DNA from: Acidobacteriota bacterium
Lineage (GTDB): Bacteria; Acidobacteriota; Terriglobia; Versatilivoradales; Versatilivoraceae
Direction of reading: 5' to 3'
Assembly (NCBI GenBank): GCA_028875575.1
Contig: JAPPDF010000084.1
Coordinates: 12,666-76,665 of the forward strand
Length of the DNA stretch: 64,000 nucleotides
The translations under genes and the position numbers were made by a program. A model generated the notes under the pieces. That model ran no database searches. It saw only the letters and a list, made by a program, of their open reading frames with translations, and was not told where the DNA came from. Of this stretch, positions 2,858-49,382 are shown one piece after another. Each line of letters starts with the position of its first letter. The stretch's first letter is position 1.

Positions 2858-2932
2858 CCGGTCCGTCAGGCCCCGGGCGTCCGGGGTTTTCGGATGCAAT
2901 CACGAGACAGAGTCCAAGGAAAAGAATCCCTC

Positions 2933-3913: not shown

Positions 3914-3948
3914 CTGAAAGCACACCAAGGAAGGAAGGAAGGAAACTT

Positions 3949-4914: not shown

Positions 4915-4983
4915 TTCTTGGATTGGAATCGCAGAGCCCAGGCTCCCAGCCTCGGTGCCGCCAGTAGCCACCAGGAGGTCTTG

Positions 4984-13386: not shown

Positions 13387-14646
13387 CTACGTCCCGAAGT
13401 AAGTTTCCCCTTCCATCAGGTACTTCCGGGTCTCCTCTTCGTCCAGTTCCACCCCCAGCCCCGGACCCTCGGGGATATCGATAAAGCCGTTGCTGATCTT
13501 GGGCCTGTATCCCTTGAGGATGCGGTCCCAACCGGGCATGGCGTGGAACTCCAGCGCCAGCAGGTTGGGCATGGCGGCGCAGGAGTGAACCGCGGCGGCA
13601 ATGCCTATGGGGCTGGAGGCGTTGTGAGGACAGGTCTGCAGGTGGTGGATGTCGGCCAGGTCCGCAATCTTCTTGGATTCGGCAATGCCGCCGCTGACCT
13701 GGATGTCGGGGGCCACCATGCGGGTGGCCGACCGCCGGAAGAATTCCAGGAACTCGTGGCGCAGGTGGAGTCCCTCCCCAACCAGGGTCGGCGTGTGCGA
13801 GGATGCCGTCAGGGTCGCCCAGGCCTCGACGTCGGTAGCCGGGATGGGATCCTCGACCCAGGTGAGGTCGAAGGGCTCCACGGCCTTGAGGTAGCGCATG
13901 GCATTGGACAGGGTTCCGCAGCGGGCCTCGACCGAGATTTCCACCTCCTCGCCGACTTCCCGCCGGATGTCCTCGATCTGACGAACCAGCGTGCTCAAGC
14001 CCTTGCGCGTCAGGTGACGGTCCATGACGCCGCCCGGGACCCCAAGCACCTTGGGGGGCGTGGCATCGAATTTCAGGCAGGTGATGCCCAACTCCCGATA
14101 GACGTCGGCCATGCCCAGATAATCCTGCAGGTCTCCCACGCAGCAATAGAGACGCACCCGGTCCCAATGCCTTCCGCCCAGCAGCTTGTATACCGGGGCG
14201 CCCAAGGCTTTCCCGGCAATGTCCCAAAGGGCGGTTTCCACGCCGCTGGCGGCATGGGCGGCCACGCCGCTGTCGAAATGGGCGGCGCCGAAAGTGCCGT
14301 AGGCCCGCCCCATCATCCGTCGAAACAGCCTCTCGACGTCGGTGGGATCCTCGCCCAAAAGCAACGGGCGGTAACCCAGCACATGGGCTCGGGCGGCATC
14401 GTTGGCCCAGGTGTCGCCGTAGCCGCTGATTCCCTGGTCGGTATCGACGCGGATCAACATCCAGCGCCGCCGCCAGCCCCAGTCCACCTCCAGCATGGTG
14501 GTCTTCACGTCGGTGATGCGGATCTCGGGCTTGGGTTTGGTTCCGGCGGCATGAATGGAATTCCGATCATGACCGGAGCCCACCAGCAGGGCGCCGGTCG
14601 CACCGGTCAGCGATGACAGAAAGTGGCGGCGATCGAAGGCCAACAT
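13387..14646 (-). CDS. Mandelate racemase/muconate lactonizing enzyme family (enolase superfamily) protein with Tat signal
   Basis: N-terminal RRHFLSSLTGATGALLV Tat signal. The MR_MLE pattern is present (KFDATPP..., catalytic Asp/Glu region EDPIP). Confidence 0.8.
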   Translation of the reverse strand: MLAFDRRHFLSSLTGATGALLVGSGHDRNSIHAAGTKPKPEIRITDVKTTMLEVDWGWRRRWMLIRVDTDQGISGYGDTWANDAARAHVLGYRPLLLGEDPTDVERLFRRMMGRAYGTFGAAHFDSGVAAHAASGVETALWDIAGKALGAPVYKLLGGRHWDRVRLYCCVGDLQDYLGMADVYRELGITCLKFDATPPKVLGVPGGVMDRHLTRKGLSTLVRQIEDIRREVGEEVEISVEARCGTLSNAMRYLKAVEPFDLTWVEDPIPATDVEAWATLTASSHTPTLVGEGLHLRHEFLEFFRRSATRMVAPDIQVSGGIAESKKIADLADIHHLQTCPHNASSPIGIAAAVHSCAAMPNLLALEFHAMPGWDRILKGYRPKISNGFIDIPEGPGLGVELDEEETRKYLMEGETYFGT

Positions 14647-28456: not shown

Positions 28457-28520
28457 AAGAGCTGATGGTCCGGGGTGTGGACGAGCAAACCATGCACGTC
28501 CACGAGGCGATTCGGACTCG

Positions 28521-31055
28521 TTACCTGTCCTTCACATTCAGGCTGACTCTCACCATGGCCGCGGCCAATTTTCTGACATCCCTTCCACCGTCGATGGATT
28601 TGGGGGAGATGGCGTCGGGCAAGTCGAATTCGATCGTGACTCCCCTGGAGTCGACCAGTTCCTTTGGGATGGTCGCCTGCAACGTGTGAGTCTTTCTCTC
28701 AGTGGCTGTCCATTCACCGACCTTGTTTCTGTTGGCCAAAACACGGATGGTCTGCTTGGGCACCCGTTCTTCTCGCAGGAAGGGTCGAAGCACTGCCTGC
28801 AGGGTGAGATCCTTTTGAGGAACGGGCACTGGAATATGGAGGCTGGCGAGGTGTCCGCTGGTCCAGCGGAAGTTGTCCTCGGCCGATTTGCTCCACCCCC
28901 TGCCCATAAAGGCTTCAGCGTTGCCATTCCTTCCGAATCGGATCTCCGTCCCGTACCGATAGTCCGGCCAAGGATGCAGGCTGAGGGAACGCATCAATAT
29001 GGCCAATTGTCTCCTGTCTCCTCCGGCGCCAATCGACCTGGGCGAAACCGCATTGGGGAGATGGAATGCGATTTCTACGTCTGGAGAATGAATCAGTGCC
29101 TTTGGAATTACGGCTCGAAACTGGTGCACCTGCTGTTTACCGGCAGACCAGAGATCGATCTCTGTGCCATTGGCAAGGACGTGAATTTGTTGTTCCGGGA
29201 CCTCCGGTTTGATGTAGGGTCTGAGAGTGGCCTTCAAGAGAAGATCGTTTTCAGGTACAGCCAGCTTGATCTTCAAGCTCGAGTTGTGGCCATTGTTCCA
29301 GCAGCCGTTACTCATCGGCGAGCTCCACCCGAAGCCCAGAAAATCGTCCGCATTTCCCAACAGACCGAAGGTGATGTCGGTACCGAATTCGTACTGGGGT
29401 CTCGTTCTCAATACGGCAACAGGCTCGCCACCGTGGCATGCCGCCGGATCGAAAACGCTGCCTGTAATCAGGTACTTGGTGAGTTCCGGCTCTCCAGTGG
29501 ACGTGCGGTAGGTTACGAACGGACGACTTCGTGCCTCCCTGGGGGAGATTTCAAAAATGGGTCGTCCGGGAAACCCTCCATCGACTCCACTCGCTTTCAT
29601 GATGGTTGCCGCGATGTCCAGGAGAGAGGTTTGAGCCCTCGAAACCGTCAGGGCCCCCGAGCTTCCCGGGAGCTTCATCGTTAGCAGGGCGGCAAGCCGG
29701 GGGACACAGGTTTCGATCGTTTCCCCATCGATAACCGGAGGAATCTGGCTGCCGTGATCGCCCTGCAGAACAATGAGGGATGAATCGTAAAGATTCAATT
29801 CCTTGAGTCGATTCAACAACTTCAGAAAGAGTTTCAGGATTGCGCGCGCTTCGTTCCGATAATTTTCCCTGGTGTTGGGAAGGACCCGGCCGGCATAACT
29901 TCCGTCATCCCGCGTGACATAAGGAGGATGGGGCGGAATCAGGTGGAGGAAGTGATAGGCCGGTTGGGAATCGCCAACAAAAACATTTCCCGCATAATCG
30001 TTGAAGAACGCCTTTTTCTGGAAAGAAGAGACACTCCTGTGTCCGGCCACCAGCGGTGTGATCAACCAATTGTTGTCGTTGTAGACTCCATAGCGAGCCC
30101 AATGGGGAAGTTGCCGAAACAGCGCCACATCCATGAGGTGGGCGGCGCTGAGTTGAACCACATCCTCCGGCGAACCCATGTAAACGCGTGGAATGCGGTA
30201 GTAATTCGTGTACTTGCCATCCCGCATGGACTCCAAGGGAACCAGGTTCACTTTATATCCGTCATCGTGTAGACGGTTCTGAAAACCTTTGCGCACCGAT
30301 TCCCGGTAGTAGCTTCCCGGGAGTTGTTTCCCGTCAAAAATCTGACCGGAGAAGATGGCCGGTATCGAAAACGAAGTGTAGGGAGCAACCCCCATGTTGT
30401 CTTCGAACAGAACAAAGCCCTCCAGGTCGTCTTCCAGTTGTTGCTCGACCACCAGTTCCCGGAAAATGTCGGTTTGAAAGCTGTCCAGAATAATGTGAAC
30501 GATATTCCTTGAAGAGGAATAGTCCAGCAACTCGGCTGGAACCCGGTGCCGGGGAGTGTGCTCCTTCCACCACATTCCTCCTTCGGAAGTGAGGCTTAGG
30601 GCCAACATCAGAACCGATTGCAGACCAATCAGCGTCCAGCTGGCCTGTGAGGTGATCCTGATCAGGTGGTGTGAAAAACGCAGGCCGGCTGCCAGGACCA
30701 GGACCCATAGCGATGCATCCATCCAACCGCGCAAGCCAAACTGCGACCAATCGATTCCTCTCCCATCGAAGACTCCGTAGGTTCCCATCAGAAAACTTCC
30801 TTGAACCCAGAGTAGTAGGCCGAGGCAAAAGATTGTGCACGCGAGTCCCTTTAGGGCTCGGCTCGGTATCAGGAAGCCGATCAGAAGGAATGCGGTCGTA
30901 AGCAGAAGGCCGAATAGACCGTAAATGGGGAGAAGGCTCCCAAAGCCTACTTCAAACTCGTCGAGATTTCCCCGGTAGACGGAAAAAGTCCCGAAAACAA
31001 GTAGATTGGCGGAAACCAATAGAGAGGGTGGCAATACTTGTTTCAGCCTGTACAT
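28521..31055 (-). CDS. Membrane-anchored sulfatase / LTA-synthase-family protein with two C-terminal ~95-aa repeat domains
   Basis: N-terminal multi-TM, then sulfatase-fold motifs (NIVHIILDSFQTD, LQGDHGS). Tandem C-terminal repeats LKATLRPYIKPEVPEQQIHVLANG... and LQAVLRPFLREERVPKQTIRVLANRN... Confidence 0.75.
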   Translation of the reverse strand: MYRLKQVLPPSLLVSANLLVFGTFSVYRGNLDEFEVGFGSLLPIYGLFGLLLTTAFLLIGFLIPSRALKGLACTIFCLGLLLWVQGSFLMGTYGVFDGRGIDWSQFGLRGWMDASLWVLVLAAGLRFSHHLIRITSQASWTLIGLQSVLMLALSLTSEGGMWWKEHTPRHRVPAELLDYSSSRNIVHIILDSFQTDIFRELVVEQQLEDDLEGFVLFEDNMGVAPYTSFSIPAIFSGQIFDGKQLPGSYYRESVRKGFQNRLHDDGYKVNLVPLESMRDGKYTNYYRIPRVYMGSPEDVVQLSAAHLMDVALFRQLPHWARYGVYNDNNWLITPLVAGHRSVSSFQKKAFFNDYAGNVFVGDSQPAYHFLHLIPPHPPYVTRDDGSYAGRVLPNTRENYRNEARAILKLFLKLLNRLKELNLYDSSLIVLQGDHGSQIPPVIDGETIETCVPRLAALLTMKLPGSSGALTVSRAQTSLLDIAATIMKASGVDGGFPGRPIFEISPREARSRPFVTYRTSTGEPELTKYLITGSVFDPAACHGGEPVAVLRTRPQYEFGTDITFGLLGNADDFLGFGWSSPMSNGCWNNGHNSSLKIKLAVPENDLLLKATLRPYIKPEVPEQQIHVLANGTEIDLWSAGKQQVHQFRAVIPKALIHSPDVEIAFHLPNAVSPRSIGAGGDRRQLAILMRSLSLHPWPDYRYGTEIRFGRNGNAEAFMGRGWSKSAEDNFRWTSGHLASLHIPVPVPQKDLTLQAVLRPFLREERVPKQTIRVLANRNKVGEWTATERKTHTLQATIPKELVDSRGVTIEFDLPDAISPKSIDGGRDVRKLAAAMVRVSLNVKDR

Positions 31056-31342
31056 TGGTCAGTAGGATTGCGCCCCTTACCGGACTTGACTCCCACTTGC
31101 CGGGAGAAGGCTCTGAGAGACAGGTACAGAGCAGACGCAAATACAATGTCGAGAGGGCGGGACTTCAATCGGATCTTCCATCCTGGGTCGGGTCTTCTCC
31201 ACCAAGTCAATGACTCTCCAATCACAGAAAGCCCTCGCGGGTCGAGGCGATCATTGACTCCCTCACTTTCCTGGAAGAGGGGAATTTCCGAGGCCGGCCA
31301 AGACAGAGGGATACCGGTGCTTGAGGGGCCGCACCAGTCAGT

Positions 31343-33547
31343 TCAGGGTTCATGGCCGTCGTGCAACGTGATATCCCGAAAGCGGCCACCCAGCGTGCGG
31401 ACATCACGATTCATTCCTATTTCCTTGGGGGAGGTCGCATACGGAAACTTGAATTCGATCACGATTTCCTCGTCCTGGAAATGAGTTGCGGGAACAGCGA
31501 GGGAATGGGTGCGCAACCGTTTCTCGGTCAGCGTCCATTCACCCACGGGATTGTCATTGATTTGGATCAGCACGCGCTGGCGTGGGACCTTGTCCGGCAC
31601 AACGAAGGGGCGCAGTGTCGCGCTCAGGAGTACAGTGTCGCTGTTGGGAGGATCCACCTCCAACCCCAGTCTTGCGGCCTTGGCTCCTGTCCAGGTTCCG
31701 CCTTTATTGGGTCTGCTCCATCCATCCAGCAGAAATCGAAAAACGTTGCCCGTTCTCCCAAACCTGAGCACAGTACCCCAATGGTACTCTCGGCTAGAGT
31801 ACGCGGTCGGCTTGGGGTAGAGCCTTCCTTTTCGCCAGGAGGATTCCTGAAAAACGCTGCCCGAAATGACGTATTCCTGCAAGTATTCGAAAAATCCGGT
31901 CTTTGCAGCGCGATTCCGCTTAGACCCCGGGAGGTAGAATCTTCGCTGCCTCTCCTCTCCAGTATTTACTGCAAAAACGCTCTTGCCGCCAAAGTGCTCG
32001 GGCAAACCCAGCAGCGCAGCGACCGTTGCGGAGAAGTCATTGAGCTCAACCTGCGCCTCGGACACTTTTAACGGCTCCCGACTTTGCGCAGGCTTTGCCA
32101 GAAACAACGGCAAAAGGCTTCCCCATACCTGAAGATCGGATTTCATACTGTCAATCCACCGACCCGAATCGGCTGCTTGCATCTTAAACGAAAGTCCACC
32201 TCCATGGTCCGACTGAATGATGATCGTGGAGTCATCGTAGATTGCTAGGGCCCGAAGTTTGTCAAGGAAGGTGACGATCCTGTCGAGAGTATAGGCGGAC
32301 TGCCGTTTGTAGTTCTCCCGGGTTTTTTTCAAGGGAATCCTGCTTGGCAGGTTTCCATCGGCAACCACCAGCGGAGGATGGGGTGTAATGAGGTGAATAT
32401 ACTTGTAGACAGGTCCGTCTCTCCCCAGCGATGACTCTTCGGTGAAATGTCGGAGAAACTCATTCGAGGAAAAGTGTTTAAACTCCAGGCCCGACAGTTC
32501 CAGCATCATCGATGATATCGACCAGGCCTGTTGGTTATAAATCACTCTCTTGATGAAATGGGGGGCGGCTCGAAACAGAGACAAGTCCAACATAAAAGCG
32601 GCTTGCCATCTTTCCGTTTCCTCCTTTCCCCGGAAGGGTCGGCGGATATGAAAATAGGTCCCTTTTGGATAAAAGTTCAGCGAAAAATCCGTAGCCGAAG
32701 CGATATCGACCTGATAGCCGGCATCTGCCAGAACCTTGACTACATTTTTACCATCCAGTGCCTCTTGCTTGAATTTCCACACGGGAATGTGATTTCGGTA
32801 TGTCGCCCCGGTCATGAATGAAGGAACGCTCAAGTAGGTTACCGTCGACGAGGTGGTGGCTTCCTTGAAAAAGGTGAATCCCTGCAGGGCATCCCGATAA
32901 CGTTTGGAGTCCCTGACCATCTCTTCGAAGATGTCCGACTGAAACCCGTCCAAGACGATATGAATCAAATTCTTGGTGACTGAGAACCGGAAGAGCTTTT
33001 CGGGCGGATCCAAGTGGGTAATCGAGCGCCCGAGCTTTTCACCCGATTCGGCTCGTGGATCGGATTCCATTAACCACAGCGATCCCAACTGGACCGCGAA
33101 CAGAAACAGGCAGAGTAGCTGAACCACCGGAAAGAGCCGCCGCCGCCAGTAGACGGCAGCCACAAGGACCGCCACCCATATTGGGGTGTCCACATAGCCC
33201 TTCCACGCTTCCCGCGGCCAGTCTATGAATGTTCCATCCAGCGGGCCGTAACCCCATAGAAGGACATCGCTTTGCAACCACAAAAGAGCGCCAATCGCAG
33301 CGAGAACCGCGATGTAGCATTGGCCTGGCCCTCGTGGCAGAGCCAGGCCAAGACCAACGAGGATGGCCATGGACGCCAGGAACGGCATGAAATAAAGCGC
33401 GATGAGAGTGACAAACGCCACTCTCATCTCTGCTGCATTGGTGATGTAGATCGTGAGAGGACAGAAGAGGAATATCTTGAAGTTGATCCAGCCAACGACG
33501 AGTATCAAGGGAATTGCTGCGTGTCCTCGATCAGAAATCATGAGCAC
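31343..33547 (-). CDS. Membrane-anchored sulfatase / LTA-synthase-family protein (paralog) with one C-terminal repeat domain
   Basis: Multi-TM N-terminus. NLIHIVLDGFQSDIF and IIQSDHGG motifs. C-terminal LSATLRPFVVPDKVPRQRVLIQINDN... is homologous to the repeats in the neighbouring paralog. Confidence 0.75.
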   Translation of the reverse strand: MLMISDRGHAAIPLILVVGWINFKIFLFCPLTIYITNAAEMRVAFVTLIALYFMPFLASMAILVGLGLALPRGPGQCYIAVLAAIGALLWLQSDVLLWGYGPLDGTFIDWPREAWKGYVDTPIWVAVLVAAVYWRRRLFPVVQLLCLFLFAVQLGSLWLMESDPRAESGEKLGRSITHLDPPEKLFRFSVTKNLIHIVLDGFQSDIFEEMVRDSKRYRDALQGFTFFKEATTSSTVTYLSVPSFMTGATYRNHIPVWKFKQEALDGKNVVKVLADAGYQVDIASATDFSLNFYPKGTYFHIRRPFRGKEETERWQAAFMLDLSLFRAAPHFIKRVIYNQQAWSISSMMLELSGLEFKHFSSNEFLRHFTEESSLGRDGPVYKYIHLITPHPPLVVADGNLPSRIPLKKTRENYKRQSAYTLDRIVTFLDKLRALAIYDDSTIIIQSDHGGGLSFKMQAADSGRWIDSMKSDLQVWGSLLPLFLAKPAQSREPLKVSEAQVELNDFSATVAALLGLPEHFGGKSVFAVNTGEERQRRFYLPGSKRNRAAKTGFFEYLQEYVISGSVFQESSWRKGRLYPKPTAYSSREYHWGTVLRFGRTGNVFRFLLDGWSRPNKGGTWTGAKAARLGLEVDPPNSDTVLLSATLRPFVVPDKVPRQRVLIQINDNPVGEWTLTEKRLRTHSLAVPATHFQDEEIVIEFKFPYATSPKEIGMNRDVRTLGGRFRDITLHDGHEP

Positions 33548-33645
33548 GTTCCTGGGACGGGCGAAAGTCCTACGGATAATCTATTGTCGAAGGGTTTTCA
33601 ATCAGTGGGTGGCTCCGGAACACAACTTGAAAAGACTGACTGAAG

Positions 33646-35643
33646 TTACTCCTTGCGGAAGAATACTCTCACCCGAGAGAGGTCCAACAAAGAAGTATCG
33701 TAGTCGTAGCGGTCCAGGTGACCGACAATCTGCTGCATGGCCTCTGCCGGTGACGGACCATCCGCACATGGTCTTGTGTGACCCTTGACCTTCCACACGT
33801 TTAACACGTTCCTGCGCAACCGGAACTCGAAAGCCGTGTCACATTGAACCAGCGACACACTGCCGAGCGAAAAGAATGGAGGAACAATGTGGGAAGGGGT
33901 TATCTGCCTGCGGGCTATCACCCCGGTGCCATGTATCCGGTCTGCTGCGAAATTGGTGCGCTCGTGATTCGGGTCCTTCCCGATCAAGGATTGCCCCGTC
34001 ATCCATCCGGGACGATCCATCCCCAGGTAGTCGAGCAGGGTAGGAGCAATATCGAGGTTTTGAGAATTGGAAGACACTCGACGTCTTCGGTCATCGGTTG
34101 GAAACAGAAACATCAAGGGAATCCGTTTCCTGTTCGCATGCTTGATGCCGTGATCTGACGTGATCACCACGATGGTGTCCTGTAACAGGTTCCGGTCAGC
34201 CAAGCCGTCGAGAATTTTCTTCACGTGGGTATCAAACTGCAAAATGGCATCGTCATAGAAATCCGTCATCCAAGGTTCATCCTGTGTCTTGCCCTCGGAG
34301 TAAACGCGCCGGACAGGTCTGAATTTCGGCCCATGGGTTCCCAGCATGTGGAGGTAGACGAAGAAGGGCCCCTCTCCCTCGGCCAACCACCGCCAGAGTT
34401 GGACGATTCGCTCCGTATCGCCTCGTGACTGGTAGGGGACGTGAACAAGCTGATCGAACGCGTCACTCATCCGCTCAACATCGAAGACGTGCAGGAGCCG
34501 GCTCTCGATCCGGTCACGAATCTGGGTCAGGAAATAGGCGGCCCCCTGTCCAATGGCATCAGTGAACCACTCCGGCAGCAGGAATCCCTTCAGTTCTCGA
34601 TCATTGGCCCAGTCGAAGGAATGACGCATGTTGAGATCATAGGCATCGGCATAGTAGCGAAGGCCGATGTTTGCGCTGCGGTATCCAAGGGTTTTCAGGA
34701 TTGCCGGCAGGTGCTGGTAGGCGTCCTTTCCCCTCAGGATATCGGGTGGATAAATGAGGCGCGTCTCGGTGGGGAGCTTCCCCGTCAAAATGGAAGCTAC
34801 GGAAGCGGCCGAGGGTCCCGCATTGGGGAAGTTGTTCTCGCAAAGCAGCGATCTGTCGGCCAGTTGCCTGAGGTAAGGGGTCGTGTCCCTGTCGTAACCA
34901 TACAGCGACATATGCTCGGCCTCAACACCGTCTCCGACGATCAGGAGTATGTTGGGCAGCACTCCGTTCTTCACGTGTGGGCCGACCGGCGTGGACGCTG
35001 ATACTTTGTGAGTCCCCAGGTAGAGGGTCCCAACCAGCGTGATCGAAGCCATTGCGGCGCATGCGACGCCGAGCGAGCGACCGAGCCCGTGACGTGAAAT
35101 GGTCCGTATTGCCTGCCAAGTCAGGGTGTAGACCGCCACTGCAATCAACACGAGCAGAGCCTGATACCCGAGCAACCCCTTGGCCTCGACATGCCTGATA
35201 CCCCAGCCCAGCACCGTCAAGGTGAAGTTGTCGACCATCAGAAAGGCAGCCAGAGCCAGCACCCAGCACGGAAGCAGGAGGCTCACGGGGACCCATAGAG
35301 CGCGGACGGGGCCGGGAACCTGGAAGCCGGCCAACGCGGAGCCGTATCCAAGCAAGGCCCCGACCATCCAGTACAACACCAGGGGTGCGACCGTCGCCAC
35401 CAGCACTGGGCCGGAAGAAACCGCGAGAATGAGCAGGGACTCGGACAAGGGCAGCGAAGACATGAAAGAAGGCTTGGTGACAAAGAATAGCCATTCCATG
35501 AAAACGTAGAAATACACGGCCAGGAATGTGAGTCCGAAGACTCGTCCCAAAGATGCGGGCCCCAGGACTTCCGTCCATGAGTCCCGGAAGGGCTTTGAAG
35601 CAACCACGACCTGTTTACGCCATTCCCCACGAATCATTGACAA
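33646..35643 (-). CDS. Membrane-anchored sulfatase-family protein (alkaline phosphatase superfamily)
   Basis: Multi-TM N-terminus. NILLIVGDGVEAEHMSLYGY, TGKLPTE and VITSDHG motifs. It is the first gene of a three-gene minus-strand operon. Confidence 0.75.
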   Translation of the reverse strand: MSMIRGEWRKQVVVASKPFRDSWTEVLGPASLGRVFGLTFLAVYFYVFMEWLFFVTKPSFMSSLPLSESLLILAVSSGPVLVATVAPLVLYWMVGALLGYGSALAGFQVPGPVRALWVPVSLLLPCWVLALAAFLMVDNFTLTVLGWGIRHVEAKGLLGYQALLVLIAVAVYTLTWQAIRTISRHGLGRSLGVACAAMASITLVGTLYLGTHKVSASTPVGPHVKNGVLPNILLIVGDGVEAEHMSLYGYDRDTTPYLRQLADRSLLCENNFPNAGPSAASVASILTGKLPTETRLIYPPDILRGKDAYQHLPAILKTLGYRSANIGLRYYADAYDLNMRHSFDWANDRELKGFLLPEWFTDAIGQGAAYFLTQIRDRIESRLLHVFDVERMSDAFDQLVHVPYQSRGDTERIVQLWRWLAEGEGPFFVYLHMLGTHGPKFRPVRRVYSEGKTQDEPWMTDFYDDAILQFDTHVKKILDGLADRNLLQDTIVVITSDHGIKHANRKRIPLMFLFPTDDRRRRVSSNSQNLDIAPTLLDYLGMDRPGWMTGQSLIGKDPNHERTNFAADRIHGTGVIARRQITPSHIVPPFFSLGSVSLVQCDTAFEFRLRRNVLNVWKVKGHTRPCADGPSPAEAMQQIVGHLDRYDYDTSLLDLSRVRVFFRKE

Positions 35644-35940
35644 ACCATTCCATCCCCGGCGGGCGGATCAGTCGAGATTCCGAGTTGACTCATTGAAACG
35701 GTCCCGGCTCAAATTTCGAAAAAAACAGGGTGGCAGGCCGGAAATGCTCTCCACAAAAGGGAAACAGTGTAGTCTCGGGGGGCTTGATTATCAAGGGTGG
35801 CCAGTCAGGTGACAGCCGCCCTCGCGCCCGGCTGCTCCAGACGTGGCGTCATCCTTTCCAGGGATGCCCGGGAACAGTGCTCGGGCCATGTGCTATAGTC
35901 ACGCCAGCGGTCGTCCAAAAGGAAATCCCCGCTCATCTAC

Positions 35941-40782: not shown

Positions 40783-40980
40783 GCCGCTGCATCCGTTCGG
40801 CGGGCGTCGGCCGGCCGACCTCCGAGTCCCGGCCTTGGGAAACTCCCGGCTCCGCTTTCGGTCCGGTCGCAGTCGGCCGAGAAGGGCCACCGACCGTCCC
40901 TATGGTATACTGAACGGCACTTTCGGCCGACCCAACAGGGTGCCCGCCCCGGCTTGAGAGTACTATAGCCAACCCGGCGC

Positions 40981-41634
40981 ATGAAGACAGAAAAAATCTC
41001 CGAATTCACCATCAATCGCCTCTCCATCTATCTCAGATGCCTGAACCTGCTGGCCGCATCCGGGGTGACCACCACTTCTTCCCAGGCCCTGGCCGAACAG
41101 TTTCAACTGAACTCGGCGCAGATCCGCAAGGACTTGACCTATTTTGGCGAATTCGGGGTGCGGGGCGTCGGCTACAACGTGACTGAGCTGCGAGCCCATC
41201 TCAACGAGATCCTTGGGCTGGACAGGCAGCACAGGATCGGCATTGTGGGCGCCGGCAATCTGGGGATGGCGTTGGCCAACTATCGGGGGTTCGAGCACGA
41301 ATGTTTTCAGGTAGCGGCACTCTTCGACAAGGAGGCATCGCGCCTGGGAATCACGTCCCGCAGTGGTGTCGTCGTCCACCACATCGACGAGCTCGATGAG
41401 GTGGTCGCCCGCGAGCGGATCGTCATCGGCGTGGTAGCGGTACCGGCGGAAAACGCCCAGGAGGTGGTCGACCGATTGACCGAGGCCGGAATCAGCGCCA
41501 TTCTCAATTTTGCGCCGGTGCGTCCCAACACTCGACCGGGAGTGCAGCTCAAGACCATGGATCTGGCCATCTCCTTCGAAAGCCTGTCCTATTTCCTTTC
41601 CGACTCGGGTCTCGACGGCCCTACTCCACCCTGA
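40981..41634 (+). CDS. rex: Redox-sensing transcriptional repressor Rex
   Basis: N-terminal wHTH INRLSIYLRCLN. Rossmann motif IGIVGAGNLG. 217 aa. Confidence 0.85.
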   Translation: MKTEKISEFTINRLSIYLRCLNLLAASGVTTTSSQALAEQFQLNSAQIRKDLTYFGEFGVRGVGYNVTELRAHLNEILGLDRQHRIGIVGAGNLGMALANYRGFEHECFQVAALFDKEASRLGITSRSGVVVHHIDELDEVVARERIVIGVVAVPAENAQEVVDRLTEAGISAILNFAPVRPNTRPGVQLKTMDLAISFESLSYFLSDSGLDGPTPP

Positions 41635-41666
41635 CCGGGCGCACCCGGCAGAAGACGCTAGCTGAG

Positions 41667-42443
41667 ATGACAGAGTCTCTGGAGCAACACCGCAAGGATA
41701 TTGTCGAGATCGGTAGGCGCATCTACCGGCTGGGCTACGTGGCGGCCTTTGACGGCAACATCAGCGTACGAATGGGAAACGGCAACGTGCTGGCCACCCC
41801 CACCGCCATGAGCAAGGGCTTCATGGCCGAGGAGGATCTGGTCATCGTCGATCCCGAAGGGCGGGCCGTGGAGGGCAAGCGCAAGGTCTCCTCGGAAATC
41901 GCCATGCACCTGCTGATCTATCAGCTCCGTTCCGACGTTCAGGCGGTGGTGCACGCCCATCCCCCCTGCGCCACGGGTTACGCTGCCGCCGGCGTCCCCC
42001 TGACCAAGGCCATCCTGGCCGAGGTGGTGCTGGTCCTGGGATGCATTCCGCTCACCCGTTACGGGACCACCGGGACTTCCGAGCTGACGGATGCCATTCG
42101 GGACTACGTCCCCAGGCACGATGCCTTGCTGCTGGCCAATCATGGCGTGGTCACCTACGGGAGCGACCTGTTCCTGGCTCACGCCAAGATGGAAACGGTG
42201 GAGCACTTCGCCCGCATCAGTCTCGCCACCAAGGTTCTGGGTCGGGAAACGCTGCTCAGCGGCGAAGATGTGGACAAGCTTCTGGTTGCCAGGGAAAAGT
42301 ACGGGATCAAGGGCCCCTCGCCGGTAGGGGAGGGGTGTCCCACCCTGGGAGAGGAAGAGTCCGAGCCAAGGATAACGTTGACCCGAAGTCAACTGGTCGA
42401 TATCATCCAATCGGCGTTGGTGTCTCTGCAAAAAGAGAGGTAA
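41667..42443 (+). CDS. Class II aldolase (fuculose/rhamnulose-phosphate aldolase-like) with C-terminal encapsulation-peptide-like extension
   Basis: Class II aldolase/adducin pattern (GNISVR, zinc-binding AVVHAHPP). The C-terminus has a Pro/Gly/Glu linker followed by an amphipathic helix, ITLTRSQLVDIIQSALVSLQKER. Confidence 0.85.
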   Translation: MTESLEQHRKDIVEIGRRIYRLGYVAAFDGNISVRMGNGNVLATPTAMSKGFMAEEDLVIVDPEGRAVEGKRKVSSEIAMHLLIYQLRSDVQAVVHAHPPCATGYAAAGVPLTKAILAEVVLVLGCIPLTRYGTTGTSELTDAIRDYVPRHDALLLANHGVVTYGSDLFLAHAKMETVEHFARISLATKVLGRETLLSGEDVDKLLVAREKYGIKGPSPVGEGCPTLGEEESEPRITLTRSQLVDIIQSALVSLQKER

Positions 42444-42503
42444 CCCGCACTGGCCAGGCTGCGAAGCTGTGAAGCCTGCAGCCCCCGGTGAGAAATGCGG
42501 GTT
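42442..42503. mobile_element. Degenerate, internally collapsed MITE-like remnant
   Basis: aacccgcaCTGG...CCGGtgagaaatgcgggtt resembles both TIRs of the 244-bp MITE. It begins on the aldolase TAA stop. Confidence 0.4.
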
Positions 42504-42618
42504 TGGGTTTGATTCCACGGAGCAGCCGGGGGAAGGTTCCCGGTGAGCTCGACGGACTCGGACTGGGTCGTTCGCAGCAACTGGCTTGTCGACAGATCAT
42601 CATGGAAAGGACGGGAAG

Positions 42619-42903
42619 ATGGGTGAAGCTCTAGGAATGATCGAGACACGCGGGCTGGTGGCCATGATCGAGGCGTCGGACGCCATGGTCAAGGCAGCCA
42701 AGGTGACCCTGGTGGGATGGGAGAAGATCGGGTCCGGGTACGTGACTTCCATCGTGCGCGGGGACGTGGCCGCCGTCAAGGCCGCCACCGACGCCGGGGC
42801 CGCCGCTGCTCGGCGGGTCGGAGAACTGGTCAGCGTTCACGTGATCCCCAGGCCCCATTCCAACCTGGAAGAAGTTCTCCCCATCGGCAAAGCGGGGGCG
42901 TAG
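42619..42903 (+). CDS. Bacterial microcompartment shell protein BMC-H (PduA/EutM-like)
   Basis: [30 protein letters not shown]...[19 protein letters not shown] is the canonical Pfam BMC-domain signature. Confidence 0.9.
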
Positions 42904-42957
42904 CCCGATTCGGTTGAGGAGGGCCGGGACCAGCGGTCCAGTCCCTGAGGGTGCCCC

Positions 42958-43227
42958 ATGCTTTTAGGTCGGGTTGTCGGAACAGTTGTCGCCACTCGCA
43001 AGGACCCGCGTCTGGAGGGCAAGAAGCTGCTTGTCGTCCGGACCATCGATCCCTCCGGCAAGGATCTGTCCGGTTACCTGGTGGCCGTGGATACCGTAAG
43101 CGCCGGCTTCAAGGAAAGAGTGCTGTTGGTCTCCGGGAGTTCCGCCCGCATGGCCGGGGGGTGCAGGGATTGTCCGGTCGACACGGCCATCGTCGGCATT
43201 GTCGACTCCGTAGAAGTGACTGCTTAG
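42958..43227 (+). CDS. BMC vertex protein BMC-P (EutN/CcmL family), paralog 1
   Basis: MLLGRVVGTVVATRKD...AVDTVSAG...AIVGIVDSVEV matches the EutN/PduN pattern. 89 aa. Confidence 0.9.
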   Translation: MLLGRVVGTVVATRKDPRLEGKKLLVVRTIDPSGKDLSGYLVAVDTVSAGFKERVLLVSGSSARMAGGCRDCPVDTAIVGIVDSVEVTA

Positions 43228-43239
43228 GGAGGCCCCGCA

Positions 43240-43509
43240 ATGCGACTGGGTCGGGTGGTCGGACCAGTGGTGGCCACACGCAAGGACGACGCGCTCGAGG
43301 GCAAGACGCTGCTCCTGATTCAACCCCTGGACAAGCAGGGGCGCGACCGCGGAAGAGCCCTGGTCGGAGTGGACGCGGTGGGCGCCGGGGCTGGAGAGAC
43401 CATCTACTGGTGCCGTGGCCGGGAAGCCTCCCTGGCCTGGCATCCTCATCATACCGTGCCGACGGAATGCGCCATCGTCGGCATCGTCGACTCGGTAACC
43501 ATCGATTGA
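43240..43509 (+). CDS. BMC vertex protein BMC-P (EutN/CcmL family), paralog 2
   Basis: MRLGRVVGPVVATRKD...GVDAVGAG...AIVGIVDSV. 89 aa. Confidence 0.9.
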   Translation: MRLGRVVGPVVATRKDDALEGKTLLLIQPLDKQGRDRGRALVGVDAVGAGAGETIYWCRGREASLAWHPHHTVPTECAIVGIVDSVTID

Positions 43510-43534
43510 TTCCTCAAGCGGGGCTTCAGCCACC

Positions 43535-43807
43535 ATGCTGATCGGCAGAATCATCGGCGAAGTCGTCGCCACTCGCAAGCACGCCTCCCACGAGGGACAG
43601 AAGATTCTTTACGTCCAGATGCTCAATCTGGACGGCAGCGAGCGTGGGTCACCTTTCCTGGCGGTGGATTCGGTGGATGCCGGGGTGGGTGACGACGTTC
43701 TGGTCGCCCAGGAGGGCTGGTCGGCCATGACATCGGTGGGGAAGCCCTACTCTCCGATCGACATGGCCGTGGTCGGTGTCATCGATCAGGTGCATCTGTC
43801 GGAATAG
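43535..43807 (+). CDS. BMC vertex protein BMC-P (EutN/CcmL family), paralog 3
   Basis: MLIGRIIGEVVATRKH...AVDSVDAG...AVVGVIDQV. 90 aa. Confidence 0.9.
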   Translation: MLIGRIIGEVVATRKHASHEGQKILYVQMLNLDGSERGSPFLAVDSVDAGVGDDVLVAQEGWSAMTSVGKPYSPIDMAVVGVIDQVHLSE

Positions 43808-43825: not shown

Positions 43826-44440
43826 TTGCCCATGATTGCTCACCTCTCGGGCACGCTCCTCTCCAAGGAACCCCAACAGGTCGTAATCGACGTCAACGGT
43901 GTCGGCTATGAGGTTCACGTCCCCCTCTCCACCTTTTACGAGGTGGGCGAGGTCGGGTCCTCGGTTCAGCTTCGCATCCACACCCACGTTCGCGAGGATA
44001 CCCTCCAGCTATTCGGCTTCAGGAGCCTGGAGGAGAAGTCGGCCTTTGAGCACCTGACCTCCGTTTCCGGTGTCGGTCCCAGGCTGGCTCTGACCATCCT
44101 TTCGGGGATGAGCGTGGAGGAGTTGATCCCGGCCATCCGCCAGAGCAATTCGACCCGGCTTTGCCTGATTCCGGGGGTGGGGAAGAAGACAGCCGAGCGC
44201 CTGGTGGTGGAGCTCAGGGACAAGCTGGCCCGGACGGTGCCGGATGAGCCACGCCCGCAGGCGCCGGGCCCTTCTTCCCTGCAGGAAGACGTGGTCTCGG
44301 CCCTGGTGAACCTGGGTTACCCCAAAGCCTCGGCCGTGAGGGCTTTTCAGGAGTCTGCCCGGGAGGCTCCGGCAGACGGGAGCATGGAGCTGCTGATCAA
44401 GGCGGCCTTGCAGGTCCTCTCCCGGCCGAAACGAGGCTAG
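43826..44440 (+). CDS. ruvA: Holliday junction branch migration protein RuvA
   Basis: MIAHLSGTLLSKEPQQVVIDVNGVGYEV..., then HhH motifs LIPGVGKKTAERLVVEL. The TAG stop sits at the MITE junction. Confidence 0.9.
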   Translation: MPMIAHLSGTLLSKEPQQVVIDVNGVGYEVHVPLSTFYEVGEVGSSVQLRIHTHVREDTLQLFGFRSLEEKSAFEHLTSVSGVGPRLALTILSGMSVEELIPAIRQSNSTRLCLIPGVGKKTAERLVVELRDKLARTVPDEPRPQAPGPSSLQEDVVSALVNLGYPKASAVRAFQESAREAPADGSMELLIKAALQVLSRPKRG

Positions 44441-44684
44441 CCCGCATTTCTCACCAGGCCGCTGGAGGCATTACAAGAAGTAGATTATCTTCAGCACCTT
44501 GATTGGCTCAATGTCAAGGGCTTGCGCATCACAGACGGCGCTGGGCATGCCCTGGCTTGTCCTTTTCCCTTCAGCGCGCACAGGCTCCCTCGACCGTAGA
44601 AACCGCTACGCTCTTCGGTCGCGAGCACGCGCTGAAGGGGAAATTCCTGCGCCATGATCATGCCCCCTGGTGAGAAATGCGGGC
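44440..44684 (-). mobile_element. MITE copy 3 (245 bp, inverted relative to copies 1 and 2) between ruvA and ruvB
   Basis: Same TIRs and TA flanks, inserted in CTAG exactly at the ruvA stop. About 90% identical to copies 1 and 2. Confidence 0.85.
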
Positions 44685-47669: not shown

Positions 47670-47758
47670 CGAGGCCGTGCCCTGGCCCGTACAAGCGGCG
47701 CCCAATCGCTCCTGCAATTTTGTCGCCTTGGCGTGACGATGTCATGGAATGAAGGCCA

Positions 47759-47965
47759 CCCGGGAGCGCGGGCGTCCCGACCGCACGATGCCCGGCAAAG
47801 CGCCGGATATCTCCCCGACGTGGATCAGCGCGGAACGGCGCCATGCCCCTCCCGCTGCATGACCGATGCGGTTCCCTCCGAAGGGGTGGCTGCCAGCGGC
47901 ATTGCGCTGAAGCTCGGCGGCGGCCAAAGGCGTAACGATGCGGGCGGGACGCCCGCGCTCCCGGG
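47759..47965. repeat. Perfect 21-bp inverted repeat flanking a ~165-bp spacer (between panB and the FGE gene)
   Basis: cccgggagcgcgggcgtcccg at 47759-47779. Its exact reverse complement cgggacgcccgcgctcccggg lies at 47945-47965. Confidence 0.7.
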
Positions 47966-48057
47966 TGGTCGCCGTCCCGGCGCACTCCGCTTCAATAGCA
48001 AGACCTTCTCACGGGCAGAGCGCTTCGTGCTAAGCTGTTCGGCTCCAGAGGCTTCCC

Positions 48058-49056
48058 ATGAAATCGCTCGCGAGCCTGACGCTATGGCATCTCTGTTCCC
48101 TGGCCGTTATGGTTCCCGCCGCTTCCGCTGAAATCCTCTACGACAAGCAGGGCATTTGGTTCCGCGGAACGGCCCACATCGTCTGCCTCAATGCCGCTAC
48201 CACCAATGCGCCAGAGGAAAATTGTCCTGCCGAGCAGTACGACGACGCCATCGACCTGATCGACCAAGCCGAAGGCCACCAGGCTCGGGGAAAGTCTGGA
48301 CCCGCTGCACCCGGAGGAGAAGGCCCCGAGCCGACCGGAATCCGGGTAGGGGAGACGGTGGTCTTCGACGGGATGGACTTTGTGGGAATTCCACCGGGAG
48401 AATTCGTGATGGGCTCCACCAGCCGCTATGCGTTCCAAGATGAGAAGCCGGTGACAAGGGTGACGATCGGCAGGGGGTTTTACCTGGGCAAGTACGAGGT
48501 GACCCAGGCCCAGTGGCGGGCGGTGATGGGGAAGAATCCTTCGGGCTTCGCCGGATGCATATACTGTCCGGTGGAGCAGGTCTCCTGGGAGGAAGTGCAG
48601 GTCTTCATCGGGAAGCTCAACGCCCGGTCGGGCGGGGGGCGCTACCGGTTGCCGACCGAGGCGGAGTGGGAGTATTCGGCCCGGGCGGGGACTACGGGTG
48701 ACACCTACGCGGGGGACATCACCCGACCGTTCGGCAGTGACCCGGTGTTGAACGGGATCGCCTGGTACGATGAGAACAGCGGCCGACGAACCCATCCCGT
48801 TGGGCGGAAGGCGCCCAACGGGTGGGGACTCCACGACATGCTGGGGAACGTGTGGGAATGGACGGGGGACTGGGCCGGGGCCTATCCGGGCGGGACAGTC
48901 ACCGACCTCGTGGCACCAGGATCAATCCCGAGTCGGGTGATTCGCGGCGGCGGCTGGAACCTCTTCGCCGGGGCCTGCCGGTCGGCGATTCGCACCGGGT
49001 TCCCGCCGGGAGACCACAACCATCTCCTGGGCTTCCGCCTGCTGAGGGAGGAGTAG
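48058..49056 (+). CDS. Formylglycine-generating enzyme (SUMF1/FGE-sulfatase domain) family protein, secreted
   Basis: Signal peptide. FGE-domain motifs (GIPPGEFVMGS, YEVTQAQW, RLPTEAEWEYSARAG, GGGW). Confidence 0.8.
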   Translation: MKSLASLTLWHLCSLAVMVPAASAEILYDKQGIWFRGTAHIVCLNAATTNAPEENCPAEQYDDAIDLIDQAEGHQARGKSGPAAPGGEGPEPTGIRVGETVVFDGMDFVGIPPGEFVMGSTSRYAFQDEKPVTRVTIGRGFYLGKYEVTQAQWRAVMGKNPSGFAGCIYCPVEQVSWEEVQVFIGKLNARSGGGRYRLPTEAEWEYSARAGTTGDTYAGDITRPFGSDPVLNGIAWYDENSGRRTHPVGRKAPNGWGLHDMLGNVWEWTGDWAGAYPGGTVTDLVAPGSIPSRVIRGGGWNLFAGACRSAIRTGFPPGDHNHLLGFRLLREE

Positions 49057-49382
49057 CCTTGGGGTCATTTACCCTTTTGCCCTTGGTGGGTCGCCCCAGG
49101 GAAAAGCTCGGACGGGACACCGCGAAGGCGGCGGCAGCAGTCATCCGTCGTGCTCCATCTCAAACAGGCCTGGGCAAGGCGGGACAGCCCTTGCCCTGAA
49201 ATCTGCCAGGAGTGCGTGTCCTCGGGCTCTCGCCGACGAGTCGAGCATGTTGCAGTAGCCACATTGGTCCCCGAAGGCGTCCAGCAGAGCCCGGTGCCCC
49301 CGGCATCGATGCCCGCCGAATCGGATAGTGATACCATGCTCTTTCATGCCGGGATGGACCCGGCGGGAAATGCGGGTGGAGC

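What the first reader, a model, noticed from the sequence alone, without database searches (positions are those of the whole stretch)
40981..43807. Compact microcompartment locus (rex, EP-tagged class II aldolase, 1 BMC-H, 3 BMC-P) lacking the canonical aldehyde-dehydrogenase/PTAC core
One BMC-H and three tandem EutN/CcmL-type BMC-P genes follow a class II aldolase. This is the shell inventory typical of the Planctomycetes-Verrucomicrobia (PVM) fucose/rhamnose BMC.

The window contains no signature aldehyde dehydrogenase, phosphotransacylase, acetate kinase or lactaldehyde reductase, and the cluster runs straight into ruvAB. The gene immediately upstream, 33 bp before the aldolase, is the NADH/NAD-sensing repressor Rex. 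The described PVM loci have a DeoR-type regulator instead.

This is either a satellite shell locus whose enzymes lie elsewhere, or a reduced BMC type in which redox state gates shell expression.
Basis: partly seen in the sequence, partly recalled or inferred. Interest (0 to 1): 0.75.

Follow-up and report, generated by a model that had tools for sequence, protein, structure and literature searches.

The report
Acidobacterial ACI-type microcompartment locus behind rex
This is a real, intact protein-organelle (bacterial microcompartment) gene cluster, but it belongs to the "ACI" type already catalogued for Acidobacteria in 2021, not to a new reduced type; its one unusual feature is that in this species it lost its own promoter and sits directly behind the redox-sensor gene rex.

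Summary
No aldehyde dehydrogenase, PTAC, acetate kinase, Fe-alcohol dehydrogenase or extra shell gene occurs in the 64 kb.

The organism is an acidobacterium (Terriglobia, near Ca. Versatilivoraceae). The order aldolase(EP)–H–P1–P2–P3 recurs in 42 of the 80 closest species-level genome loci across Terriglobia, Bryobacterales and Vicinamibacterales. This matches the ACI type of Sutter et al. 2021, whose aldehyde dehydrogenase is reported to lie on a satellite locus. It is not PVM, which has two BMC-H and is confined to Planctomycetes and Verrucomicrobia.

The window's clade lacks two ACI accessories, the 2-hydroxyacid dehydrogenase and the small Cys-rich EP protein. Most Terriglobia loci lack them too.

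Rex is adjacent in only about 10% of such loci. No canonical Rex operator was found. Relatives carry a conserved promoter in front of the aldolase; it is deleted here, so the aldolase probably reads through from rex. All genes are under strong purifying selection.

Verdict: a new member of a known, still uncharacterised kind. Interest is modest.

The parts
40903..40911 (+). Extended -10-like box TGGTATACT upstream of rex. Probable promoter of the rex-aldolase transcription unit.
   Evidence: Conserved as ATG(G/C/A)TATACT in the window, L008-L010, L092, L093 and L090, although the surrounding intergenic sequence diverges. Promoter function is inferred.
40981..41634 (+). rex, the NADH/NAD+-sensing transcriptional repressor (217 aa)
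   Evidence: NCBIfam NF003995, 254 bits, profile positions 2-207 of 213. Pfam Put_DNA-bind_N plus CoA_binding. dN/dS is 0.04-0.12 against relatives.
41635..41666 (+). 32-nt rex-aldolase junction. The conserved aldolase promoter of relatives is missing here.
   Evidence: L009, L010 and L090-L095 carry TTGATG-N17-TAGAAT (..GAAAAGTTGCTAGAAT) about 90 nt upstream of the aldolase ATG. The window, L001-L007 and L008 lack about 135 nt including it. The motif occurs nowhere in the window.
41667..42443 (+). Class II (metal-dependent) aldolase with a C-terminal encapsulation peptide. Predicted signature enzyme and cargo.
   Evidence: PF00596, E=2.5e-45. The best solved relative is L-fuculose-phosphate aldolase 6btd over residues 5-213. 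E77, H96, H98 and H159 are invariant in 18 homologues. All NCBIfam equivalogs score below their cut-offs, so the substrate is unassigned.
42312..42440 (+). Aldolase tail (residues 216-258): an invariant Cys-Pro, a variable linker, then a terminal helix (residues 240-257, nt 42384-42437), which is the encapsulation peptide.
   Evidence: The tail extends beyond the FucA fold. It is conserved as C-P, a variable linker and (I/V)TLT(R/K)xxLVDxIQxA. The AlphaFold model gives an unstructured stretch at 212-239 and a helix at 240-257, but overall confidence is low. An HMM of the tail hits only this ORF in the window.
42619..42903 (+). BMC-H hexamer shell protein (94 aa)
   Evidence: PF00936, E=2.9e-30. 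EutM equivalog, 153 bits, above its cut-off of 133. PDB EutM 3mpw, 139 bits. The PRPH motif is visible in the sequence. It is 79-98% identical to the BMC-H of other acidobacterial loci. dN/dS is 0.014-0.054.
42958..43227 (+). BMC-P pentamer, paralogue 1
   Evidence: PF03319, E=5e-29. PDB 5v74 BMC-P, 78 bits. It is 58-84% identical to the first BMC-P of the ACI-like loci outside the window's own genus-level group.
43240..43509 (+). BMC-P pentamer, paralogue 2
   Evidence: PF03319, E=3e-25. PDB 5v74. It is 50% identical to P1 and 39% to P3. It is the best match to the second BMC-P in other loci.
43535..43807 (+). BMC-P pentamer, paralogue 3
   Evidence: PF03319, E=5.7e-24. PDB 4i7a and 5v74. It is 67-80% identical to the third BMC-P in Terriglobia and Bryobacterales. 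Orthology to the third BMC-P of Vicinamibacterales is ambiguous at 44-49%.
43832..44440 (+). ruvA. A co-oriented neighbour 24 nt after P3 and probably on the same transcript. It is not a BMC component.
   Evidence: TIGR00084, 207 bits. No terminator-like site lies before it; one lies after it at 44540-44556. ruvA follows the shell genes within 3 kb in 12 of the 32 GTDB shell-bearing loci with enough downstream sequence.

Best explanation
This is the main locus of an ACI-type bacterial microcompartment, the Acidobacteria-specific type catalogued by Sutter et al. 2021. It is in the trimmed form common in Terriglobia.

How it most likely works (inferred from how other BMCs work, not shown here):
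- BMC-H hexamers tile the shell facets.
- The three paralogous BMC-P pentamers cap the vertices.
- The class II aldolase is drawn inside by its C-terminal amphipathic helix.
- Inside, it cleaves a ketose or deoxy-ketose 1-phosphate of the fuculose/rhamnulose-phosphate kind into DHAP and an aldehyde.
- The aldehyde is then handled by an EP-tagged aldehyde dehydrogenase. In ACI genomes that enzyme is reported to be encoded at a separate satellite locus.

rex is a lineage-restricted neighbour, not a defining regulator of the type. In this species and its closest relative, a ~135-nt deletion removed the conserved aldolase promoter. At least the aldolase is therefore most likely transcribed by read-through from the rex promoter, possibly on to ruvA.
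For: Host: the closest loci are Terriglobia or Ca. Versatilivoraceae MAG chromosomes with 91-96% aldolase identity. Other homologues are Acidobacteriota.

Domains.

Colinearity: aldolase(EP)-H-P1-P2-P3 occurs in 42 of 80 GTDB loci and 26 of 80 metagenome loci. These span Terriglobia, Bryobacterales and Vicinamibacterales, and gene-by-gene best matches keep the same order.

Link to the archetype: Vicinamibacterales loci add, directly after P3, the ~80-aa protein with an N-terminal EP and Cys-rich end, plus a 2-hydroxyacid dehydrogenase. This is exactly the published ACI description. Relatives at 69-73% aldolase identity (L090, L091, L094) still carry the Cys protein between P3 and ruvA. They connect the window's form to the archetype.

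AldDh: no homologue lies within +/-10 kb of any of the 80 GTDB loci, within the +/-6 kb fetched around the metagenome loci, or in the window. This fits 'AldDh consistently on a satellite locus'.

Selection: dN/dS is 0.014-0.19 for all six genes, as strong as or stronger than for ruvA.

Promoter deletion.
Against: - Two ACI main-locus components are missing. The hydroxyacid dehydrogenase and the small Cys/EP protein are absent from the locus and from the window. The two tandem 2-hydroxyacid dehydrogenases at 2894-4914 are only 33-37% identical to the ACI enzyme.
- I could not locate the satellite AldDh or any other cargo in this genome, so the downstream chemistry is inferred.
- The catalogue says ACI occurs primarily in subdivisions 4 and 6, whereas this host is a Terriglobia lineage. 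The catalogue does label Ca. Solibacter and Sulfopaludibacter proteins as ACI.
- The colour-clade assignment of the BMC-P triplet (green, grey, orange) could not be reproduced.
- The aldolase substrate is unknown. Every NCBIfam equivalog scores below its cut-off.
Confidence: 0.8

Rival explanations
1. A self-sufficient, minimal 'aldolase-only' microcompartment whose expression is gated by Rex, that is, by the NADH/NAD+ ratio.
For: - The aldolase is the only EP-bearing protein detectable in 64 kb.
- rex is 32 nt upstream on the same strand, and the operon's own promoter is deleted.
- rex-aldolase adjacency recurs with three different left-hand neighbours: yhaM in the window clade, a metallophosphoesterase in L090, and frdAB in L080.
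Against: - No Rex box TTGTGAA-N4-TTCACAA with <=3 mismatches occurs anywhere in the window.
- None occurs with <=4 mismatches in the regulatory regions of six rex-linked loci.
- No TGTGA-N6-TCACA core lies near the locus.
- rex is absent from about 90% of orthologous loci, including close ones such as L091, L094 and L095.
- The published type has its AldDh elsewhere.
- An aldolase alone would release a free aldehyde with nothing to consume it.
Confidence: 0.1
2. A PVM-type (Planctomycetes-Verrucomicrobia fucose/rhamnose) microcompartment, either a satellite copy or a reduced derivative acquired by transfer.
For: It shares a class II aldolase signature enzyme and a BMC-P triplet with PVM. The window is rich in sulfatases and an FGE-type maturase, as in fucoidan degraders.
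Against: - PVM is confined to Planctomycetes and Verrucomicrobia and has two BMC-H. Its AldDh and PTAC lie in the locus.
- Among the listed homologues that carry an organism name, nearly all are Acidobacteriota; the three exceptions are MAG contigs labelled Bacillota or Acidimicrobiia.
- The locus sits in a conserved acidobacterial chromosomal position upstream of ruvAB.
- GC content at the locus (0.61-0.63) matches the surrounding genome.
- The triplet is not PVM-specific.
Confidence: 0.03
3. A decaying remnant of a once larger locus that no longer makes a compartment.
For: It lacks the hydroxyacid dehydrogenase, the Cys protein and its own promoter, all of which relatives have.
Against: All ORFs are intact. 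dN/dS is 0.014-0.19 against three relatives whose dS ranges from about 0.2 to saturation. BMC-H is 98% identical to that of a genome whose ruvA is only 76% identical. The same compact gene set is the majority form in Terriglobia and Bryobacterales.
Confidence: 0.04

Closest known systems
ACI bacterial microcompartment type (Sutter, Melnicki, Schulz, Woyke & Kerfeld 2021, Nat Commun 12:3809; Supplementary Data 2)
   Same: - Acidobacterial host.
- pfam00596 aldolase with a C-terminal encapsulation peptide.
- One standard BMC-H.
- Three adjacent BMC-P paralogues.
- No AldDh in the main locus.
- Colinear with archetypal loci.
   Different: - No 2-hydroxyacid dehydrogenase in the locus.
- No small Cys-rich EP protein and no other 'unknown' proteins in the locus.
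- The host is Terriglobia (Ca. Versatilivoraceae-like), not subdivision 4 or 6.
- rex lies directly upstream and the operon promoter is deleted. The catalogue does not mention Rex at all.
PVM microcompartment (Planctomycetes/Verrucomicrobia fucose and rhamnose catabolism; Erbilgin et al. 2014, as summarised in PMC8217296)
   Same: A class II aldolase as the presumed aldehyde-generating signature enzyme, a BMC-P triplet, and a likely carbohydrate-derived substrate.
   Different: [quoted passage not shown] Its AldDh and PTAC are encoded in the locus, and it occurs only in Planctomycetes and Verrucomicrobia.
HO and MIC3 microcompartments (Haliangium ochraceum type; uncharacterised Planctomycetes type)
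   Same: The catalogue states that the ACI aldolase is most similar to those of HO and MIC3, and the ACI AldDh to that of MIC3. The window's BMC-H and BMC-P give strong matches to the solved HO shell proteins (5djb, 5v74).
   Different: HO and MIC3 loci carry BMC-T proteins and an AldDh. They occur in other phyla.
Rex regulons (NADH/NAD+-responsive repressor with operator TTGTGAA-N4-TTCACAA; operator consensus from my own knowledge of the Rex literature)
   Same: The window's Rex is full length, with the conserved SAQIRKDL recognition-helix region and a GxGxxG Rossmann motif.
   Different: No operator of the canonical type occurs in or near the locus. No paper in the searched library links Rex to a microcompartment.

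Membership tests
ACI BMC type | Host is a member of Acidobacteria | tested here: met
   The closest genome loci are Terriglobia or Ca. Versatilivoraceae MAGs. The lineage is Acidobacteriota. Named homologues are Acidobacteriota.
ACI BMC type | pfam00596 class II aldolase carrying a C-terminal encapsulation peptide | tested here: met
   PF00596 covers residues 11-185. The FucA fold ends near residue 215. A conserved 43-residue tail ends in a helix at 240-257. The model has low confidence, so the helix call rests mainly on sequence conservation.
ACI BMC type | Triplet of distinct BMC-P genes encoded next to each other | tested here: met
   Three PF03319 genes lie in tandem and are 39-50% identical to each other. 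They keep the same order as in other ACI-like loci. The colour-clade assignment (green, grey, orange) could not be reproduced.
ACI BMC type | At least one BMC-H with standard interface motifs in the main locus | tested here: met
   PF00936 over the full profile. EutM equivalog above its cut-off. The PRPH motif and the interface lysine region are visible in the translation. It is 79-98% identical to the BMC-H of other loci.
ACI BMC type | 2-hydroxyacid dehydrogenase (pfam00389/02826) in the main locus | tested here: not met
   None lies between rex and ruvB. The ACI-type enzyme was found next to the shell genes in only 5 of 32 GTDB loci. The window's two enzymes at 2894-4914 are 37 kb away and 33-37% identical.
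ACI BMC type | Short (~80-100 aa) protein with an N-terminal EP and conserved C-terminal cysteines, plus other proteins of unknown function | tested here: not met
   tblastn and two HMM rounds find it in L058, L059, L064, L067, L086, L090 and L091, but not in the window or L001-L010. tblastn also finds it in L094, L142 and L158, but not in L092 or L093. It may be encoded elsewhere in the genome. The top 120 of 3958 family members included none on the relevant 4.8-5.8 Mb contigs, which is inconclusive.
ACI BMC type | Aldehyde dehydrogenase (pfam00171) with an EP on a satellite locus | not testable with these tools
   There is none in the window or in any fetched locus. That fits a satellite position, but the rest of the genome could not be scanned.
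PVM BMC type | Host in Planctomycetes or Verrucomicrobia | tested here: not met
   The host is an acidobacterium. The catalogue states that PVM occurs only in those two phyla.
PVM BMC type | Two BMC-H plus three BMC-P, with AldDh and PTAC in the locus | tested here: not met
   There is one BMC-H and no AldDh or PTAC in 64 kb. The presence of AldDh and PTAC in the PVM locus is from my own knowledge of the PVM literature and the catalogue's HMM table.
Rex-regulated operon | Rex operator (TTGTGAA-N4-TTCACAA-like inverted repeat) in the promoter region | tested here: not met
   There are 0 matches with <=3 mismatches in the window. There are 0 with <=4 mismatches in 2.3-2.8 kb spanning the locus in six rex-linked loci. 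No core site lies near the locus, and no suitable inverted repeat was found. A non-canonical operator cannot be excluded.

The most novel reading that the evidence does not exclude
In this species, and in the species represented by L008, the ACI organelle operon lost its own conserved promoter and was captured by rex. Aldolase and shell synthesis would then follow rex transcription and, if Rex autoregulates through a non-canonical site, the cellular NADH/NAD+ ratio. That would be the first microcompartment wired directly to a redox sensor. The recurrence of rex next to the aldolase in three different genomic contexts hints that the link is selected.
Probability: 0.15. Interest if true: 0.5.

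Novelty: new member of a known kind. Interest (0 to 1): 0.3.

Why it matters
ACI is one of the larger microcompartment types with no experimental work. Acidobacteria are abundant in soils and engineered systems.

This locus gives a very compact, well-conserved core: one enzyme and four shell genes in 2.1 kb. It comes from lineages that have complete long-read genomes. That makes it a convenient starting point for heterologous shell assembly, for testing the aldolase encapsulation peptide, and for finding the substrate.

The comparative data also sharpen the published description of the type:
- Outside Vicinamibacterales, the hydroxyacid dehydrogenase and the Cys protein are usually not part of the main locus.
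- The locus has a conserved position upstream of ruvAB in Terriglobia.
- Rex is an occasional neighbour.

None of this changes the classification. The finding is mostly a correct observation filed under the wrong type.

Tried and rejected
1. Canonical Rex operator. I searched the full 18-mer with up to 3 mismatches in the window, with up to 4 mismatches in six rex-linked loci, and the 5+5 core with 2 mismatches. Nothing lay near the locus. An inverted-repeat search of the two intergenic regions found only GC-rich chance palindromes.
2. Rfam scan of 40.5-44.8 kb. Only sub-threshold chance hits.
3. Conserved 60 nt upstream of BMC-H, including the palindrome TGTCGACA. It is conserved only within the genus-level group and not in L092 or L093. 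I dropped it as a regulatory candidate.
4. Locating the satellite AldDh.
   - tblastn with E. coli EutE, EutD and EutG found nothing in any of the roughly 170 fetched loci or the window.
   - I tested whether the ACI Cys-rich domain also occurs on AldDh-length proteins, using a profile search of 1.84 billion representatives. All hits but one are 60-135 aa. The exception is an 820-aa protein with 11 repeats of the EP-like part. That route failed.
   - A family search for the Cys protein returned no member on the 4.8-5.8 Mb chromosomes among the 120 listed. This is inconclusive.
5. Two exact-sequence look-ups of window proteins failed, probably because of start-codon choice.
6. AlphaFold model of the aldolase from an 18-sequence alignment. 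Mean pLDDT was 55, so I used it only for the tail's helix-after-linker pattern and ran no fold search.
7. The tandem 2-hydroxyacid dehydrogenases at 2.9-4.9 kb as displaced ACI components. Rejected at 33-37% identity, against 52-72% among true ACI enzymes.
8. Literature. No paper in the library links Rex to microcompartments or describes Versatilivoraceae.


Full report
**Observation.**
- rex (40981-41634) is a full-length Rex: NCBIfam subfamily model at 254 bits, with Pfam Put_DNA-bind_N and CoA_binding.
- The next gene (41667-42443) is a class II aldolase: PF00596, E=2.5e-45.
- Then come one BMC-H (PF00936, E=2.9e-30) and three tandem BMC-P (PF03319, E=5e-29 to 5.7e-24), each matching the whole profile.
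- Gene calls on public contigs that carry identical proteins start the BMC-H at the ATG at 42619, giving 94 aa.
- The shell proteins match solved shell components: EutM, PduA, the Haliangium BMC-H, and the BMC-P of the intact Haliangium shell.
- ruvA starts 24 nt after the last BMC-P with no terminator-like site in between. One such site follows ruvA.

**Core enzymes are absent from the window.** I surveyed the whole window in three ways.
- Pfam tables of colinear public contigs for roughly 23-52 kb.
- Pfam scans of every other plausible ORF.
- tblastn with E. coli EutE, EutD and EutG.

There is no aldehyde dehydrogenase, phosphotransacylase, acetate kinase, iron alcohol dehydrogenase or further shell gene in 64 kb.

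**Host.** The aldolase's close homologues come from Acidobacteriota. A scan of species-representative genomes found three complete MAG chromosomes with 91-96% identical aldolases. They are labelled Terriglobia or Candidatus Versatilivoraceae, a family of Acidobacteriota, class Terriglobia. All three have the same gene order from yhaM through rex, the aldolase, H, P, P, P and ruvAB. GC content at the locus equals that of its surroundings.

**What the locus is.** Sutter et al. 2021 (PMC8217296) defined an 'ACI' microcompartment type found only in Acidobacteria.
- Its main locus has a pfam00596 aldolase with a C-terminal encapsulation peptide, a BMC-P triplet, at least one standard BMC-H, a 2-hydroxyacid dehydrogenase and three unknown proteins.
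- One of the unknown proteins is about 80 aa, with an N-terminal encapsulation peptide and conserved cysteines.
- Its aldehyde dehydrogenase is consistently on a satellite locus.

The window's core matches this.
- Among the 80 best genome loci, 42 have a BMC-H directly after the aldolase, nearly always followed by three BMC-P. The best matches to the window's P1, P2 and P3 occur in that order.
- The same holds for 26 of 80 metagenome loci.
- These loci span Terriglobia, Bryobacterales (including Solibacteraceae and Sulfopaludibacter, whose proteins the catalogue labels ACI) and Vicinamibacterales.
- In Vicinamibacterales the third BMC-P is followed immediately by an 80-aa protein and then a 2-hydroxyacid dehydrogenase. 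The 80-aa protein has an N-terminal amphipathic helix and a CX7CX2CX2C end. This is the published archetype.
- Relatives at 69-73% aldolase identity (L090, L091, L094) still carry the Cys protein between P3 and ruvA.
- The window's clade, at 84% identity or more, lacks it.

The window therefore holds a trimmed ACI main locus. The trimming is ordinary. Of 32 shell-bearing genome loci with enough downstream sequence, only 4 have the Cys protein and only 5 have the ACI-type dehydrogenase nearby.

**The aldolase and its tail.**
- The fuculose-phosphate-aldolase fold ends near residue 215.
- Residues corresponding to the zinc ligands and catalytic glutamate of that family (E77, H96, H98, H159) are invariant in 18 homologues. 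The correspondence to E. coli FucA residues is from my own knowledge.
- Every NCBIfam equivalog, including FucA and 3-oxo-tetronate-4-phosphate decarboxylase, scores far below its cut-off. The substrate is therefore open.
- The 43-residue tail has an invariant Cys-Pro, a variable linker and a conserved terminal segment, ITLTRSQLVDIIQSALVSL.
- A low-confidence AlphaFold model (mean pLDDT 55) shows it as a helix at 240-257 after an unstructured stretch.
- Aldolase homologues in Terriglobales genomes without shell genes lack this tail.
- An HMM of the tail finds no other such peptide in the window.

**Function is retained.** Against three relatives, dN/dS ranges from 0.014 (BMC-H) to 0.19. That is as strong as or stronger than for ruvA. 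A decaying remnant is unlikely.

**Rex.** Adjacency is real but restricted.
- rex lies directly upstream of the aldolase in the window's clade (L001-L010, L092, L093), in L090 (69% aldolase identity) and in L080. L080 is a low-GC groundwater acidobacterium at 49% identity, where rex follows frdAB.
- This amounts to 4 of 40 GTDB loci and 2 of 19 metagenome loci with enough upstream sequence.
- Close relatives L091, L094 and L095 lack it.
- The three rex-linked groups have different left-hand neighbours. This gives some weight to a functional tie.

- No TTGTGAA-N4-TTCACAA with up to 3 mismatches exists anywhere in the window.
- None with up to 4 mismatches exists across the regulatory regions of six rex-linked loci.
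- No TGTGA-N6-TCACA core lies near the locus.

The Rex recognition-helix region looks canonical in the translation, so a canonical site would be expected if Rex acted here. A divergent operator cannot be excluded.

**A lineage-specific rewiring.**
- All relatives at 69-94% aldolase identity carry a strongly conserved promoter-like element about 90 nt upstream of the aldolase start, whether or not rex is present: TTGATG, a 17-nt spacer ending in TGC, then TAGAAT.
- The window's species and L008 lack about 135 nt including it. That leaves 32 nt between the rex stop and the aldolase start.
- The motif occurs nowhere else in the window.
- Upstream of rex, an extended -10-like box (TGGTATACT, 40903-40911) is conserved across the clade and in L090.
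- The deletion is shown. Transcription of the aldolase by read-through from the rex promoter is inferred.
- A promoter-like site inside the aldolase 3' end (42378-42406) could drive the shell genes separately. It lies in conserved coding sequence and cannot be judged by conservation.

- The PVM comparison fails on host range and on shell inventory, because PVM has two BMC-H. The BMC-P triplet is common to many types.
- By the catalogue's definition, a locus with both H and P is the main locus, not a satellite.
- The 'enzymes lie elsewhere' option is what the published type predicts. I could not verify it. No tool allowed a scan of the rest of the genome, and two indirect routes failed.
- The 'reduced type gated by redox state' option survives only as a minority reading.

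**Verdict.** This is a correctly observed, intact and selectively maintained microcompartment locus. It is a new member of the catalogued but experimentally untouched ACI type. Its minor lineage-specific feature is the fusion behind rex through loss of the operon promoter. Interest is modest.

Noticed in passing
window 41635-41666; compare L009:9840-10000, L010, L090-L095: A conserved promoter-like element (TTGATG-N17-TAGAAT, core GAAAAGTTGCTAGAAT) lies about 90 nt upstream of the aldolase in all relatives at 69-94% identity. It is deleted (~135 nt) in the window's species and in L008, so rex and the aldolase are fused into one unit.
   Followed up: yes
window 40903-40911 and 40956-40968: Two boxes are conserved upstream of rex across the clade: TGGTATACT (extended -10-like) and GAGAGTACTATAG, the latter 12 nt before the ATG. 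The second is flanked by short complementary arms that appear to co-vary in L092 and L093. There is no Shine-Dalgarno sequence before rex.
   Followed up: partly
L018, L021, L022, L025, L030-L033, L039, L040, L046, L053, L085: Many Acidiferrales and Terriglobia genomes keep an aldolase that still has the C-terminal tail next to ruvA, but with no shell genes between them. Of 36 shell-less loci, 20 retain the tail. The shell genes were either lost or moved.
   Followed up: partly
L090:11986-12288, L091:11996-12295, L058:12297-12545; P0121-P0240: The ACI small protein has four invariant cysteines, not three, arranged CX7CX2CX2C after an N-terminal EP-like helix. This suggests a metal or Fe-S site. 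The family has 256 representatives at 50% identity and 3958 clusters at 90% identity.
   Followed up: partly
P0243 (no window coordinates): An 820-aa protein matches the EP-like N-terminal part of the Cys-protein profile in 11 separate stretches. It may be a multi-EP scaffold protein.
   Followed up: no
L080:8483-11680: A low-GC groundwater acidobacterium has frdA-frdB-rex-aldolase(EP)-BMC-H and only one BMC-P before an opposing helicase gene. It is a still smaller version of the locus, or a split one.
   Followed up: partly
window 47670-49382: A ~1.7-kb insertion between panB and panC carries an FGE-sulfatase (SUMF1-like) gene at 48058-49056. It is absent from the otherwise colinear 4.85-Mb genome (L004), where panB and panC abut.
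   Followed up: partly
window 28500-35700: Three large sulfatase genes lie in a stretch of lower GC (0.53-0.58, against 0.61-0.66 elsewhere). Together with PSCyt2/PSD1/DUF1501, a BNR-repeat protein and an enolase-superfamily gene (13387-14646), this suggests degradation of sulfated glycans. That would fit a deoxy-sugar substrate for the compartment.
   Followed up: no
window 2069-5991: An SDR, two tandem D-2-hydroxyacid dehydrogenases and a GlpX-type fructose-1,6-bisphosphatase form a co-oriented block. The dehydrogenases are only 33-37% identical to the ACI locus enzyme.
   Followed up: partly
window 42378-42406: A sigma-70-like site (TTGACC-17-TATCAT, 10 of 12 matches) lies inside the part of the aldolase gene that encodes the encapsulation peptide. 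It could give the shell genes their own transcript with a ~200-nt leader.
   Followed up: no
window 42336-42341 (aldolase residues C224-P225): A Cys-Pro pair in the otherwise variable linker of the aldolase tail is invariant in all 18 aligned homologues.
   Followed up: no
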